30,614 bases of DNA from a virus (taxonomy: Duplodnaviria; Heunggongvirae; Uroviricota; Caudoviricetes): positions 1-30,614 of IMG/VR virus record IMGVR_UViG_2724679239_000009; one strand, 5' to 3'. The notes under the pieces were generated by a model. The model ran no database searches. It saw only the letters and a program-made list of their open reading frames with translations, and was not told the origin of the DNA. The stretch's first letter is position 1. Each line of letters starts with the position of its first letter. Shown here in pieces: positions 18,915-22,373 of this stretch. The translations under genes were made by a program, and so were the position numbers.

Positions 18915-20021
18915 TCAAACAATCTGGAAAATATTTCTTGGATTTGTAATAGGTCTGTTGATGGAGAACAACTCACGAATTAAATCTTGGCTCAAGCCAG
19001 TTTTCATAAGAATTCTTAGCCAGGTTGCATCATCCAGCATTTCAATCGCCTCGGCCAGCATGCCGGGTTCTTCAGGGCGCAAAAGTTCATCACCAGGTTC
19101 AACTCTCGTATACCCTCTGGAATTAAGATGCATATAGCCAGTTCTTGCCTGTTCCTGGGTCAATAAGCCTAATGCGCTGGCTCGATAAATACACATTTTA
19201 AGGCTGATTTTCCATCTAAGTTTAAATTCAACCAGAGCATTCCAGTCGAATTGCTTACCTCGTATTCGTGGAAATTCTTTAATGAAAGATAACCTGGGAA
19301 CTAATAAGGCGCTCGAAAAGTGATCGGCTTGAGATTCCGTAAGTTTATCACCTGTCGTTATGCCCTCATGCATTACTAAATGCCCTAATTCATGACCTAA
19401 ATCAGAGCGAAATCTACATATGCTTTTTTTAACATTGTTCCTGATGATAACAGGCCTGTTATTGTGAACAGTAAAAGCATCAACACGATCATCGACTCCC
19501 GTAACATGCGCAACGATTACCCCTAAACTCTCCGCCAATTTAACCATTGATGATATAGGGCCAAGACCTAAATTCCAGGCACGGCGACAATCTTCTGCCA
19601 CTCGCTCAATATCATTCGGAGTAAGTAATTCAGCCCCTGGGTGCTCCGGTATGTTAACGTCAGGAAATTCGATTTCACCTTCAACAGCAGAAATTATAAT
19701 ATTAAGAATCTCAGCCCTGGCCAATACACTATTAGTCAGCGTTTGAGTCCTGGACTTCTTACTCCGAAAATGGCAGACATCACTTTCCAGAGCGTATTTT
19801 CGTTCAGTAAAAAGAAAACTGGACTTAATCATAAGCGCTGAAGATATTAACTCAAGACATTGCTCCGATGGCCTGCACCCCTTCTCCAGTTTGCTAACGA
19901 ATTGCTTTGTCTTGCCAATTTTTTCGGCTAACTCTTCACAAGAAAGCCCAACAGCCATTCTCGCTAGTTTGAGCTTATCACCCCGATACTCAGTGAAGTT
20001 ATTCACCTGATGTTCCATCAC
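18915..20021 (-). CDS. Fusion protein: N-terminal Xre-type HTH plus ImmA/IrrE (COG2856-like) zinc metallopeptidase
   Basis: HTH segment LKLARMAVGLSCEELAEKIGKTKQFVSKLEKG; central HEXXH zinc motif (GHELGHLVMHEG). AT-rich codon usage. Start overlaps the upstream gene by 23 nt. Confidence 0.75.
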   Translation of the reverse strand: MMEHQVNNFTEYRGDKLKLARMAVGLSCEELAEKIGKTKQFVSKLEKGCRPSEQCLELISSALMIKSSFLFTERKYALESDVCHFRSKKSRTQTLTNSVLARAEILNIIISAVEGEIEFPDVNIPEHPGAELLTPNDIERVAEDCRRAWNLGLGPISSMVKLAESLGVIVAHVTGVDDRVDAFTVHNNRPVIIRNNVKKSICRFRSDLGHELGHLVMHEGITTGDKLTESQADHFSSALLVPRLSFIKEFPRIRGKQFDWNALVEFKLRWKISLKMCIYRASALGLLTQEQARTGYMHLNSRGYTRVEPGDELLRPEEPGMLAEAIEMLDDATWLRILMKTGLSQDLIRELFSINRPITNPRNIFQIV

Positions 20022-20649
20022 TGCTCACATCCAAATCTTTATCCTTCGTACGCCGACGAAGAGGCACCTTATTAATCTCCGCTTCGTCAGGGAGTGTGTT
20101 ATAATCAAGAGGCATAAGCGGCATCGATGCTGTAGATTGATGAGAAACTATACTAATCTGAGCACCATAAGTATTAAATCCAACAAGAGCTACCTCCCAA
20201 CGAGGCAGTGTGGACTCTAATTCACCATCGCCCTCTTCGGATAAAAAAGGCTCAGCTATGACTCGCCATGTAATATCTTGCTCAGCCTCAACATCACCAA
20301 ACAATGAGAGCTGCTCATACTCTACTTTATTTCGACGCAGACGATGTTTCTTTTTGGGGTTATTAATGCAATCTTTGGTAAATTGTAGCGGAACTTTATT
20401 TAAAGCAACTACATAGTCCAACCCCTTGGAAATCATCTCAAGGCCAGGAATTGCATCTTCATTTTGAATAAGATGATTTCTGACCCAATCATAAGCCCTT
20501 ACACCTTCAGACCAGTTGCTGTCTAATGCGTGCTTATGATAGTACAGCTGCTCAAGTACGTTAGCGATCTCCGCCAACAAGTGGCGAACATAGTTTTCAG
20601 CAAGATAAGGTTGAAATTCCCAACAAGGAGCTAACTGATTTTCATTCAT
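19999..20649 (-). CDS. Hypothetical protein (216 aa), first gene of a two-gene accessory operon
   Basis: ORF with acidic C-terminus and no motif I recognise. A consensus -35 hexamer TTGACA (minus strand, 20708-20713) lies upstream. Confidence 0.6.
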   Translation of the reverse strand: MNENQLAPCWEFQPYLAENYVRHLLAEIANVLEQLYYHKHALDSNWSEGVRAYDWVRNHLIQNEDAIPGLEMISKGLDYVVALNKVPLQFTKDCINNPKKKHRLRRNKVEYEQLSLFGDVEAEQDITWRVIAEPFLSEEGDGELESTLPRWEVALVGFNTYGAQISIVSHQSTASMPLMPLDYNTLPDEAEINKVPLRRRTKDKDLDVSSDGTSGE

Positions 20650-20730
20650 TTCAAGTTTCGCTTTTTTTAGAATTCGTAAACCACATATTTTCGCATTTTT
20701 CTATTTTTGTCAACCAGACTAATGCAAAAA

Positions 20731-20744
20731 CCCGCCGAAGCGGG
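20731..20744 (-). terminator. Intrinsic terminator (minus strand) after the hok gene
   Basis: cccgc-cgaa-gcggg hairpin followed by T-run on the minus strand. Confidence 0.7.
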
Positions 20745-20814
20745 TTAAGTGCGGGTGCGTTGAGGATGCCTGGCACATCAGAGGTGGCGGGAGATTACTC
20801 CCCCGCCGGGTCTC

Positions 20815-20970
20815 TTACTCCTCAGGTTCGTAAGCTGTGAAGACAGCGACCTCCGTCTGGCCGGTTCGGATTCGTACCTCGCAGAGGTCTTTCCTCGTTA
20901 CCAGTGCCGTCACTATGACGGTTAAACAGATGACGATCAGGGCGATTAACATCGCCTTTTGCTGCTTCAT
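20815..20970 (-). CDS. hokD: Hok-family membrane toxin (HokD/RelF-like, 51 aa)
   Basis: Hand translation MKQQKAMLIALIVICLTVIVTALVTRKDLCEVRIRTGQTEVAVFTAYEPEE, with AAGGAG RBS. Matches the Hok family and HokD as I recall it. Too short for the supplied ORF track. Confidence 0.85.
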   Translation of the reverse strand: MKQQKAMLIALIVICLTVIVTALVTRKDLCEVRIRTGQTEVAVFTAYEPEE

Positions 20971-21341
20971 AGCCTGCTTCTCCTTGACCTTTTGGTCCGT
21001 AAGAGGCTAATCTCTATGTGTCGCATAGATATGGCCTCAGATTAATGTTAAGCGTCTTGCAGGACGCGTAATGTTAACTGGGGCTTTTCTCTATCTGCCT
21101 TTTGGTGTTCATGCCTGAGGCAGATAGCCTCAAGCACCCACAGCAATTCTACTTAACTCCCGCCACCTCGCCAATATAAAATCAATCAGAAAGGCGATCC
21201 ATAAGAACAATAGCAAGACAATAAATTGCCACTACAGCCGCAATAGCCAGCGCGCATTTGAGAACCAGCACGATAACCTCCTGTATTGGACGTACACCAG
21301 CTCTGATAAATATGAGGCTGCCTCTTTAACTTCGCATTGCG

Positions 21342-22373
21342 CTACCAATCAATAAAATCAGTGATGTTATCCAACCTAATTACAGTAACTTCCCGTCTCA
21401 ACTGGTTTTTCCAATATATCTCACGAGCGTTTTGTTCACCAGCACCGCTCCACTCAATTACTCTTAAAGGCTTAGAGGTTAGGTAAGGTCGAATAAGCAG
21501 GTTAAGGTGAATATCGAGACCAGAGTAACCAAACAATATTATTTCTTCTGATTCAAATAATGCAAACTGCAAATAATCCCAGTACGTAGAAAGAACATTA
21601 GATGCTGCTATAACTGACGGTTTTCTTTTTATATGAGTTAACACTATATGCTCACTAGGTTCATCTATGTCAAGAGTAAGTTGTGAGCGTGAAAGTTTTA
21701 AAACATTTTCATGCTGATTAATAAATAGTGGTGAACCATGCAAGTGCAAATAATAACCAAACCTACGATTGTATTTCCGTTCGAGCGCTGCAGAGGAAAA
21801 TCCGTGGCTTAGCATCCCATCAACTAAAACCCCATCATACCCGTTGAATATATCATTATCTATGAATGAATTGTATAATAATTTGTCATAGTTTAATGTC
21901 GCGATATGTGAGTGTGTGTTCTTTACAAACTCCACAAGCGCATTTTCGAATCTTTGTGGCAAACCTTTATCGTAATTATGCAACCTGGTTGCAACTTTGT
22001 GAATATAAGTGGCGGTAATTTTGGGGAAGTTTAGTCCATCTTCAGTAAGCCAATGCACGTTCCCCTCTCCAATTTGAGCAAGAGCTTTACAATATGTGAC
22101 AGCCTGGTGAAGGGTATCCAACTCATGTTCTCCTTCTGGTGGACCTTGCCGCTGAAGACAACGCTCGATAAGTTGCTTGTGGATATCTTTTAAAAAATTG
22201 GGGCGATGCCAAATTTCTTCCAACGCTCTGTCTAAGGAGAAGTGAGCAGGATCTAAAGCCATACCGAGACCGTTGCCGAATATTATTAATTTTCTTGCCA
22301 TATAGGGGGACTCATATTGGAATAACGCTGGATAGCGTCGCGCGATACGCTTAAGTTTAGGATTAATAGACAT
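21342..22373 (-). CDS. SIR2-like (SIR2_2 / DHS-like NAD-binding fold) protein, candidate NAD+-consuming defence effector
   Basis: 343 aa. Motifs in the expected order: glycine-rich IIFGNGLGMA near the N-terminus, TLNYDKLL (sirtuin TQNID/TTNYD-like), LHLHGS (catalytic His-Gly), ILFGYSGLD. Strongly AT-rich with an AT-rich 370-bp upstream region. Confidence 0.6.
   Translation of the reverse strand: MSINPKLKRIARRYPALFQYESPYMARKLIIFGNGLGMALDPAHFSLDRALEEIWHRPNFLKDIHKQLIERCLQRQGPPEGEHELDTLHQAVTYCKALAQIGEGNVHWLTEDGLNFPKITATYIHKVATRLHNYDKGLPQRFENALVEFVKNTHSHIATLNYDKLLYNSFIDNDIFNGYDGVLVDGMLSHGFSSAALERKYNRRFGYYLHLHGSPLFINQHENVLKLSRSQLTLDIDEPSEHIVLTHIKRKPSVIAASNVLSTYWDYLQFALFESEEIILFGYSGLDIHLNLLIRPYLTSKPLRVIEWSGAGEQNAREIYWKNQLRREVTVIRLDNITDFIDW

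What the first reader, a model, noticed from the sequence alone, without database searches (positions are those of the whole stretch)
20815..21130. HokD-type toxin gene with a 19-codon leader ORF and upstream inverted repeat
A 51-aa Hok-family toxin is encoded at 20815-20970 with a strong RBS. A 19-codon ORF (20967-21026, MRHIEISLLRTKRSRRSRL) ends in a TGA overlapping the hok ATG, which resembles mok-type translational coupling but is much shorter than canonical mok. A 9-bp inverted repeat ctatctgcc/ggcagatag lies at 21091-21127. No relBE genes lie upstream, unlike the K-12 relBE-hokD operon as I recall it, so this hok may be controlled differently, possibly by an antisense Sok-like RNA.
Basis: partly seen in the sequence, partly recalled or inferred. 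Interest (0 to 1): 0.55.

Follow-up and report, generated by a model that had tools for sequence, protein, structure and literature searches.

The report
Intact prophage hokD/sok toxin-antitoxin cassette
This is an ordinary, complete copy of the well-known hok/sok RNA-controlled toxin-antitoxin module carried by a lambda-like prophage; the short 19-codon leader is the known "mok" coupling frame in a common natural short version, and the K-12 relBE-hokD arrangement is the truncated exception.

Summary
[quoted passage not shown] Hok is identical to K-12 HokD. The leader matches Rfam RF01794 at 107.5 bits against a threshold of 59. The known regulatory elements (promoter, tac, metastable hairpin, ucb, mok SD and AUG, dcb, hok SD, 3' stem-loop, fbi, terminator, Sok promoter and terminator) can all be placed. 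The RNA pairings covary across 79 distinct homologous leaders. The inverted repeat is the upper stem of the 5' tac stem-loop. The 19-codon ORF is mok. Its start is fixed 56-58 nt upstream of the hok AUG, but its frame varies between alleles: 70 codons in frame, 68 out of frame, or 19 ending at AUGA. The window's allele occurs in 805 of 5,426 complete E. coli genomes. Published R1 mutagenesis shows that only the 19 mok codons upstream of hok matter. A 92.9%-identical cassette, hokW-sokW of prophage Sp5, has been characterised experimentally. K-12 keeps only the part from 14 nt upstream of hok. Verdict: real, correctly read, already known, low interest.

The parts
21146..21174 (-). hok promoter: -35 TTGGCG (21174-21169), 17-nt spacer, -10 TAGAAT (21151-21146)
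   Evidence: Consensus scan, 9 of 12 matches. It places the start about 7 nt downstream, at G21139, which is position 1 of the Rfam model. GTAGAAT is conserved in nearly all related loci.
20725..21139 (-). Full-length hok mRNA, about 415 nt, from the inferred 5' end to the U-run after the terminator
   Evidence: 5' end; terminator. MFE is -170.3 kcal/mol with z = -7.25 against shuffles. The ends are inferred, not mapped.
21128..21139 (-). tac (translational activator) element, GGGUGCUUGAGG, mRNA nt 1-12
   Evidence: It pairs with the fbi in the full-length MFE and with the ucb in the 62- and 172-nt leader MFEs. It covaries with the fbi across genera.
21111..21137 (-). Metastable 5' hairpin of the nascent transcript (nt 3-13 paired with nt 19-29)
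   Evidence: MFE of the first 30-45 nt is -19.6 kcal/mol. It is also the RNAalifold consensus, with compensatory changes UA to CG in 13 sequences and GC to AU in 16.
21091..21127 (-).
   Evidence: Present in both the full-length and leader-only folds. 94.9% paired across 79 leaders, with 3 pairs changed on both sides.
21080..21086 (-). ucb (upstream complementary box, anti-SD), AAGCCCC, nt 54-60
   Evidence: It pairs with the mok SD in the full-length fold (C57-G105, C58-G104, C60-G102) and with tac in the leader-only fold. The tac/ucb helix is 99.8% paired but does not vary.
21035..21038 (-). mok Shine-Dalgarno GAGG, nt 102-105
   Evidence: Invariant in 79 leaders; 8 nt upstream of the mok AUG.
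20967..21026 (-). mok leader ORF, 19 codons, with UGA overlapping the hok AUG (AUGA)
   Evidence: The start position is conserved at -56 to -58 in all homologues that carry a leader.
21003..21007 (-). dcb (downstream complementary box) GCCUC, nt 133-137, the partner of the mok SD in the open form
   Evidence: The SD/dcb helix is 100% paired across 79 leaders. It belongs to the third hairpin of the Rfam model.
20980..20985 (-). hok Shine-Dalgarno AAGGAG, sequestered by CUCUU (nt 136-139 in the window's own fold)
   Evidence: The RNAalifold consensus has the corresponding helix, alignment columns 141-145 paired with 162-166.
20815..20970 (-). hok (hokD allele) CDS, 51 aa
20786..20807 (-). G+C-rich 3' stem-loop, the presumed 3' end of the processed, truncated mRNA
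   Evidence: Inverted repeat I10; formed in all folds. Its role is inferred from R1 (PMC9841398).
20753..20765 (-). fbi (fold-back inhibitory) element CCUCAACGCACCC
   Evidence: It pairs with tac in the MFE. In 18 of 19 homologues the best tac partner lies 45-50 nt after the hok stop and covaries with tac; the exception is K-12 hokC.
20729..20746 (-). Intrinsic terminator hairpin of the hok mRNA, followed by UUUUU
20984..21013 (+). sok promoter: -35 TTGACC (20984-20989), 18-nt spacer, -10 TAATCT (21008-21013)
   Evidence: Read from the sequence; it falls below the threshold of the generic scan. The complements of -35 TTG and of -10 positions 2 and 6 are invariant in 79 leaders (C154, A155, A156, T131, A127).
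21020..21094 (+). Sok antisense RNA, about 75 nt, complementary to hok mRNA nt 46-120 (ucb, mok SD, mok AUG and the first 7 nt of mok)
   Evidence: The ends were transferred from the annotated K-12 sokC through alignment A1. They agree with the promoter position and with a hairpin plus U-tail fold of -30.8 kcal/mol, z = -5.5. Not verified experimentally here.

Best explanation
[quoted passage not shown] It most likely works as the plasmid R1 paradigm does. The hok promoter makes a stable mRNA of about 415 nt. While the transcript is nascent, its 5' tac element is held in a metastable hairpin. In the finished transcript tac pairs with the 3' fbi element, the ucb box covers the mok SD, and CUCUU covers the hok SD, so nothing is translated. 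Slow 3' trimming back to the G+C-rich stem-loop removes the fbi. Tac then pairs with the ucb, which frees the mok SD. Ribosomes translate the 19-codon mok, melt the hok SD hairpin, and terminate at the UGA of AUGA. That allows hok to be initiated by translational coupling, and the 51-aa Hok damages the inner membrane. An unstable antisense Sok RNA of about 75 nt is made constitutively from a promoter inside the mok/hok SD region. Sok pairs with the mok translation-initiation region of the processed mRNA, which blocks mok and therefore hok, and marks the duplex for RNase III. Hok is therefore made only when Sok synthesis stops, for example after loss of the prophage or during induction. Shown here: the sequence elements, their complementarity, their covariation, and homology to characterised loci. 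Inferred from R1 and hokW work: mRNA processing, coupling, RNase III decay, and the biological role.
For: Toxin: Pfam HOK_GEF at E 1.2e-23, and the same protein accession as K-12 HokD. HokD is reported toxic in bioRxiv 10.1101/2025.08.07.668861. Leader: Rfam RF01794 at 107.5 bits against a gathering score of 59, full length, on the hok strand, ending at the hok AUG. Promoter and terminator. Three alternative conformations are predicted from the sequence alone. The full-length mRNA folds with tac/fbi paired and the mok SD and hok SD sequestered (z = -7.25). The leader alone folds into the tac/ucb stem, and the first 30-45 nt fold into the metastable hairpin. Covariation across 79 distinct leaders: the open form is 90.8% paired against 36-50% when the partners are slid, and 11 pairs change on both sides against 2-5. 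RNAalifold recovers the metastable hairpin and the ucb/SD stem, with 7 compensated pairs. Tac and fbi covary: GGGUGC with GCACCC, GGGCGC with GCGCCC, GAGA with UCUC. Sok: promoter, 5' end and 3' end agree with the curated K-12 sokC after alignment. mok: the start is fixed at -56 to -58 behind an invariant GAGG in all homologues that carry a leader. R1 mok also has exactly 19 codons upstream of hok. In R1, stop codons after the hok start do not impair hok, while stops before it do (PMC9841398). A 92.9%-identical cassette in Sp5/VT2-Sakai is hokW-sokW. For that locus, toxicity, Sok antitoxin activity, RNase III and Hfq dependence, and a 71-nt complementary region have been shown (PMC8621323). 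At least 80% of the region 20700-21200, which spans the cassette, is present in 3,849 of 5,426 complete E. coli genomes.
Against: No transcript, processing or toxicity data exist for this particular allele. The MFE of a 359-nt model of the truncated mRNA did not give the tac/ucb stem; only the leader-only folds did. The Sok -10 hexamer (TAATCT) matches the consensus weakly and was not picked up by the generic promoter scan. Chromosomal hokA, hokB and hokC loci were reported unable to mediate post-segregational killing (cited in bioRxiv 10.1101/2025.08.07.668861), so an intact architecture does not guarantee activity. The window and its closest relative carry AAAA instead of the usual GAAA loop in the hairpin before the hok SD; the effect is unknown.
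Confidence: 0.92

Rival explanations
1. The cassette is structurally complete but functionally attenuated. The net -1 indel that puts mok in the 19-codon frame weakens coupling to hok, and possibly the AAAA loop change does too, so the allele is a disarmed relic like other chromosomal hok loci.
For: Most loci with an identical HokD have the in-frame 70-codon mok: 70 against 13 in the sample. Chromosomal hok loci have been reported inactive in killing assays. The window's GAAA-to-AAAA change is seen only in the window and L001.
Against: The allele is present in 805 of 5,426 genomes, with the ORF, SD and AUGA preserved. The same frame arose independently in hokC of E. ruysiae and E. whittamii through a different indel. 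R1 mutagenesis shows that mok translation past the hok start is dispensable. All other elements are intact.
Confidence: 0.1
2. hok is expressed here as the last gene of an upstream operon, as in the K-12 relB-relE-hokD operon. It would be reached by read-through from the SIR2-like gene or the small upstream ORF, and the leader would be incidental.
For: All the genes in the stretch 18915-22373 are on the minus strand. Only a weak terminator-like site lies between the SIR2-like gene and hok.
Against: hok has its own conserved promoter with a 5' end matching position 1 of the Rfam model. The cassette recurs behind many unrelated upstream sequences with the same boundaries. The tac/fbi logic needs a defined 5' end.
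Confidence: 0.03
3. The 9-bp inverted repeat is a DNA operator for a repressor protein controlling hok.
For: It is a perfect 9-bp inverted repeat close to a promoter.
Against: It lies downstream of the transcription start, inside the transcribed leader. It is part of the Rfam structure. Its arms covary so as to keep RNA pairs, including G-U pairs, which would not preserve DNA symmetry (AU to GC, CG to UG, UG to CG).
Confidence: 0.02

Closest known systems
hokW-sokW of Sakai prophage Sp5 / phage VT2-Sakai (Takada et al. 2021, PMC8621323)
   Same: A lambdoid-prophage location. 92.9% nucleotide identity over 417 nt of the cassette. A 51-aa toxin that differs from the window's Hok in 5 of its last 8 residues (FVDYESEK against FTAYEPEE) and is otherwise identical. 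The same tac, ucb, hairpin insert, SDs and fbi. The Sok complementarity is of similar length: 71 nt reported there, about 75 nt inferred here.
   Different: MokW is a 70-codon in-frame extension of HokW, whereas the window's mok has 19 codons and stops at AUGA. The Sok-target stretch after the mok AUG differs. Sp5 carries the cassette near the right end of the prophage. The window carries it between the replication and Q regions, next to defence genes.
hok/mok/sok (parB) of plasmid R1
   Same: The same architecture and the same element order: tac, metastable hairpin, ucb, mok SD, dcb, hok SD, fbi, and antisense Sok over the mok start. There are 19 mok codons before the hok AUG. The Rfam and Pfam families are the same.
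   Different: R1 mok runs 70 codons out of frame across hok. The toxin is only distantly similar: 44% identity to R1 Hok is reported for the near-identical HokW. R1 is a plasmid, where the system has a post-segregational killing role. The window's Sok hairpin carries a 16-nt extension relative to the Rfam consensus.
E. coli K-12 hokD (relF) in the relB-relE-hokD operon of the Qin prophage
   Same: An identical Hok protein (WP_000813254.1), the same 3' UTR, and the same relative position in a lambdoid prophage upstream of the rem/DUF968/Q genes.
   Different: In K-12, homology starts only 14 nt upstream of the hok AUG (window 20984). The promoter, tac, ucb, mok and sok are all replaced by relBE. 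The window holds the complete version.
E. coli K-12 hokC/mokC/sokC (gef)
   Same: The closest chromosomal paralogue, with about 82% protein identity. It has curated mokC and sokC annotations that map onto the window's mok start and Sok ends.
   Different: mokC has 69 codons and is in frame. The Sok hairpin lacks the 16-nt insert. In K-12, IS186 sits 20 bp downstream and the fbi partner is missing.

Membership tests
[quoted passage not shown] | Small hydrophobic Hok/Gef-family toxin of about 50 aa | tested here: met
   Pfam PF01848 at E 1.2e-23, 82.9 bits against a cut-off of 22. PHROG 251 at E 2.8e-33. Identical to K-12 HokD. The NCBIfam Hok-family models hit but fall below their curated cut-offs: 48.5 bits against 73 for NF007279.
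[quoted passage not shown] | Structured hok mRNA 5' leader (Rfam RF01794 model) | tested here: met
   107.5 bits against a gathering score of 59, model positions 1-157 of 157, E 8.9e-24. The structure is 90.8% paired with 11 compensated pairs across 79 leaders.
[quoted passage not shown] | Long-range 5' tac / 3' fbi pairing that closes the full-length mRNA | tested here: met
   nt 1-12 pair with nt 375-387 in the MFE. The duplex covaries across Escherichia, Kluyvera, Photorhabdus and Pantoea, and the fbi sits 45-50 nt after the stop codon in 18 of the 19 loci tested.
[quoted passage not shown] | Overlapping mok leader ORF whose SD is sequestered by the ucb and whose translation reaches the hok start | tested here: met
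   A 19-codon ORF with a GAGG SD, stopping at AUGA. The SD pairs with the ucb in the full-length fold. The start position is conserved. The extent of overlap with hok is only 4 nt, against almost all of hok in R1. R1 data show that the longer overlap is not required.
[quoted passage not shown] | Cis-encoded antisense Sok RNA covering the mok translation-initiation region, with its own promoter and terminator | tested here: inconclusive
   The promoter-like hexamers, a hairpin with a U-tail, and the ends transferred from curated sokC all agree. Key promoter positions are invariant. The transcript itself cannot be observed with these tools.
[quoted passage not shown] | 3' processing to a translatable truncated mRNA; RNase III cleavage of the Sok-hok duplex; killing when Sok decays | not testable with these tools
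   Known for R1 (PMC9841398) and partly for hokW-sokW (PMC8621323). Only the 3' stem-loop that would stop the exonuclease is visible here.
relBE-hokD operon arrangement (K-12 Qin prophage) | relB and relE immediately upstream, with hok lacking its own leader | tested here: not met
   The upstream gene is SIR2-like and a full leader is present. The K-12 type shares sequence only from window 20984 downstream.

The most novel reading that the evidence does not exclude
Within cassettes that are about 93-96% identical and encode the same Hok, the mok frame switches between three states: a 70-codon in-frame Mok-Hok fusion, a 68-codon out-of-frame ORF, and a 19-codon ORF ending at AUGA. In addition, the 29 alignment columns around and after the mok AUG, which face the 5' end of Sok, are hypervariable: 16 alleles, entropy 0.61 bit against 0.09-0.28 elsewhere. 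This could reflect diversifying selection for mutually orthogonal Sok/hok pairs among co-resident lambdoid prophages. The mok frame would then be a free by-product, and the window's allele would be a natural minimal mok. I did not find this stated in the papers I read, but it extends known biology only modestly.
Probability: 0.3. Interest if true: 0.4.

Novelty: already known. Interest (0 to 1): 0.15.

Why it matters
It matters little beyond correct annotation. RefSeq annotates only the hokD CDS at this locus, so mok, Sok and the leader go unmarked. K-12's truncated relBE-hokD copy can mislead readers into thinking hokD lacks Sok control. The survey adds two modest points. Natural alleles agree with the R1 mutagenesis conclusion that only the 19 mok codons upstream of hok are needed. 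The Sok-target stretch is the fast-evolving part of the cassette. The cassette also marks a prophage accessory-gene spot that here holds a SIR2-like gene and a RosmerTA pair.

Tried and rejected
1. A 13-nt perfect inverted repeat between the hok promoter spacer (21169-21157) and the 3' UTR (20793-20781) looked non-random. It is perfect only in the window. Relatives have GAGGTGACGGGAG or GAGGTAACGGTAG, with at most 8 nt of complementarity, and the 5' arm is not transcribed. I rejected it as a chance product of G-rich motifs.

2. The MFE fold of a 359-nt model of the processed mRNA did not produce the tac/ucb stem. The 180-nt fold was also ambiguous. Only the 62- and 172-nt leader folds gave the stem.

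3. My hand transfer of the Rfam consensus structure onto the sequence was mis-registered, with 11 non-canonical pairs, and I discarded it. I used an explicit structure tested on alignment A2 instead.

4. I looked for hokW in the 1.25-1.27 Mb part of Sakai Sp5 and found nothing. According to the VT2-Sakai record it lies near the right end of the prophage.

5. NCBIfam and PHROGs searches with the 29-aa upstream ORF gave no hit.

6. The generic promoter scan did not report the sok promoter. I placed it by eye and by homology to sokC.

Full report
**The observation.**
- A 51-aa ORF lies at 20970-20815.
- A 19-codon ORF (ATG 21026 to TGA 20967) has a stop that overlaps the hok ATG as ATGA.
- A 9-bp inverted repeat consists of CTATCTGCC (21127-21119) and GGCAGATAG (21099-21091).
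- The 51-aa protein matches Pfam HOK_GEF at E 1.2e-23 and PHROG 251, "MokW-like host killing".
- It carries the same RefSeq accession as K-12 HokD, WP_000813254.1.
- No relBE lies upstream. The next gene is a SIR2-like ORF.

**What the region is.**
- A whole-window Rfam scan gave one non-tRNA hit: RF01794 "sok", 107.5 bits against a gathering score of 59, over the full model, at 21139-20968 on the minus strand.
- That hit is on the hok strand and ends at the hok AUG. Despite its name, the model therefore describes the hok mRNA leader, which contains the Sok-complementary region.
- Model position 1 (G21139) lies 7 nt after a TTGGCG-17-TAGAAT promoter (21174-21146). An intrinsic terminator lies at 20746-20729. 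Together they define an mRNA of about 415 nt.

**Conformations predicted from the sequence.**
- In the MFE of the full-length RNA (-170.3 kcal/mol, z = -7.25), nt 1-12 (tac, GGGUGCUUGAGG) pair with nt 375-387 (fbi, CCUCAACGCACCC).
- In the same fold the mok SD (G102, G104, G105) pairs with C60, C58 and C57 (ucb), and the hok SD pairs with CUCUU.
- Without the 3' end, the 62-nt and 172-nt leaders fold with tac paired to the ucb (AAGCCCC, nt 54-60). The first 30-45 nt form a hairpin of tac with nt 19-29.
- These three folds correspond to the closed full-length form, the open truncated form and the metastable nascent form described for R1 (PMC9841398).
- One caveat: a 359-nt model of the processed RNA did not give the open form as its MFE.

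**Comparative support.**
- I collected 53 loci from species-representative genomes and 80 from IMG/VR, and aligned 79 distinct leaders.
- RNAalifold recovered the metastable hairpin and the ucb/SD stem with 7 compensated pairs.
- The explicit open-form structure is 90.8% paired, against 36-50% when the partners are slid. It has 11 pairs changed on both sides against 2-5, and none of 500 shuffles reached the observed value for four of the five measures.
- The inverted-repeat helix is 94.9% paired, and 3 of its pairs are compensated.
- Tac and fbi covary across genera: GGGUGC with GCACCC in Escherichia and Kluyvera, GGGCGC with GCGCCC in Photorhabdus and Pantoea, and GAGA with UCUC.
- In 18 of the 19 loci tested the best tac partner lies 45-50 nt after the hok stop. 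The exception is K-12 hokC, where IS186 lies 20 bp downstream and the fbi partner is missing.

**Sok.**
- On the plus strand, TTGACC (20984-20989), an 18-nt spacer and TAATCT (21008-21013) precede a start near 21020.
- The segment 21020-21093 folds into a long hairpin followed by CUUUUCUCU (-30.8 kcal/mol, z = -5.5).
- As an independent check, I mapped the curated K-12 annotation (mokC 16751-16960, sokC 16952-17010) through an alignment.
- SokC's 5' end falls on window 21020 and its 3' end on 21094. The mokC start falls on 21026 and the hokC start on 20970.
- Sok is therefore about 75 nt and covers the ucb, the mok SD, the mok AUG and the first 7 nt of mok.
- The complements of the -35 TTG and of -10 positions 2 and 6 are invariant in all 79 leaders.
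- The transcript itself is inferred, not observed.

**The 19-codon ORF is mok.**
- In every homologue that carries a leader, an ATG sits 56, 57 or 58 nt before the hok ATG behind GAGG, but the frame differs.
- Among sampled loci with an identical HokD, 70 have -57: an in-frame ORF of 70 codons, that is, Hok with 19 extra N-terminal residues, as in the annotated MokW of Sp5 and MokC of K-12.
- One has -58 (68 codons), the same frame as the annotated out-of-frame mok of a Rac-type phage.
- Thirteen, including the window, have -56 (19 codons).
- Hok begins Met-Lys (AUG AAR), so the -56 frame always meets UGA at AUGA.
- The -56 state also occurs in hokC of E. ruysiae and E. whittamii through a different indel, so it arose more than once.
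- A 48-nt probe specific for the window's allele matches 805 of 5,426 complete E. coli genomes, nearly all at 95% identity or more.
- Published saturation mutagenesis of R1 reports that mok has 19 codons before the hok start. Stops in those codons abolish Hok, and stops beyond the hok start do not (PMC9841398).
- A 19-codon mok is therefore the minimal functional unit, not a departure from the mechanism.

**Relation to K-12 and to characterised loci.**
- At least 80% of 20700-21200 is present in 3,849 of 5,426 genomes.
- K-12-type genomes match only from query position 217, which is window 20984, 14 nt before the hok ATG. Upstream of that point they have relB and relE.
- The window therefore holds the complete form and K-12 the truncated one.
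- In phage records the cassette is annotated variously as MokW, HokD toxin, mok/hok, host killer protein or gef.
- The Sp5/VT2-Sakai copy is 92.9% identical. It is the hokW-sokW system, shown experimentally to be a type I toxin-antitoxin pair that partly depends on RNase III and Hfq and that assists phage release after induction (PMC8621323).

**Context.**
- The window is a lambdoid prophage. Read 5' to 3' on the minus strand, which carries these genes, the order is: replication genes, SIR2-like gene, hok/sok, RmrT, RmrA, DUF968, RusA, Q, tRNAs, lysis genes, then head and tail genes.
- Hok genes are reported to be enriched in prophages (bioRxiv 10.1101/2025.08.07.668861).

**Verdict.**
- The object is a standard, widespread, already characterised kind of system.
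- The only mildly new points are the natural frame variation of mok and the hypervariable Sok-target segment.
- Interest is low.

Noticed in passing
window 18915-20649 (-): The two genes directly downstream of hok match the RosmerTA defence pair: RmrT (216 aa, E 4.6e-25) and RmrA (368 aa, HTH plus M78 peptidase, E 6e-105) in PADLOC. RefSeq calls them hypothetical and HTH-domain proteins.
   Followed up: partly
window 21342-22373 (-): A stand-alone SIR2-like gene lies directly upstream of the hok cassette (Pfam SIR2_2 at E 1e-5; weak PADLOC Aga_SIR2 and PDC-S21 hits at about 1e-6). With hok/sok and RosmerTA it forms a small accessory or defence cluster in the prophage early region.
   Followed up: no
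window 21182-21271 (-), conserved block 21140-21324: A 29-aa hydrophobic ORF (VLVLKCALAIAAVVAIYCLAIVLMDRLSD, GTG start, AGGAGG SD) ends 8 nt before the hok -35. It is intact in 8 distinct sequences from 15 loci, with mostly conservative changes and variable sites of 5, 4 and 8 by codon position. Relatives have a conserved TTGAAx-17-CATATT upstream. The block occurs in 1,323 of 5,426 E. coli genomes and in 2 phage records, and none of the listed example hits showed an annotated feature over the block. There is no NCBIfam or PHROGs match. It may be an unannotated small membrane protein.
   Followed up: partly
window about 21005-21033 (-), alignment A2 columns 107-135: Among 44 distinct leaders preceding an identical HokD, the stretch around and after the mok AUG, which pairs with the 5' end of Sok, has 16 alleles and a mean entropy of 0.61 bit, against 0.09-0.28 elsewhere in the leader. 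The local hairpin is partly maintained. This may reflect specificity diversification between co-resident copies; genomes with any match carry a median of 2 and up to 9 matching places.
   Followed up: partly
window 15610-15763 (-): Two prophage-borne tRNA genes, tRNA-Gly(TCC) and tRNA-Thr(TGT), lie between the Q-like gene and the lysis region. The closest related prophage, in strain 2013C-4465, instead carries Ile, Arg and Arg tRNAs at the corresponding place.
   Followed up: no
L017, L022; H62: Identical or near-identical hokD sequence appears on tiny contigs labelled Acinetobacter idrijaensis (275 bp) and Xanthomonas pisi (431 bp). It also appears at 95.9% identity in an 'Actinobacillus phage' record. 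E. coli contamination or mislabelling is the likely cause.
   Followed up: no
L027 (Kluyvera sp.), L006, L087, L091: The leaderless arrangement with a relE-like 3' end directly upstream of hok is not confined to K-12. It recurs in other E. coli and IMG/VR loci and, with a 70%-identical Hok, in a Kluyvera genome.
   Followed up: no
L136 (K-12 hokC): In K-12, IS186 lies 20 bp downstream of hokC, and the tac element has no proper fbi partner: the best duplex is -13.3 kcal/mol at an aberrant position, against about -18 to -25 kcal/mol elsewhere. This is consistent with inactivation of that locus.
   Followed up: partly
window 20829-20832 (-): Hok codon 47 is TAC followed by G (UACG). This is the motif associated with TadA A-to-I editing that recodes Tyr to Cys in hok mRNAs, according to the introduction of bioRxiv 10.1101/2025.08.07.668861.
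   Followed up: no
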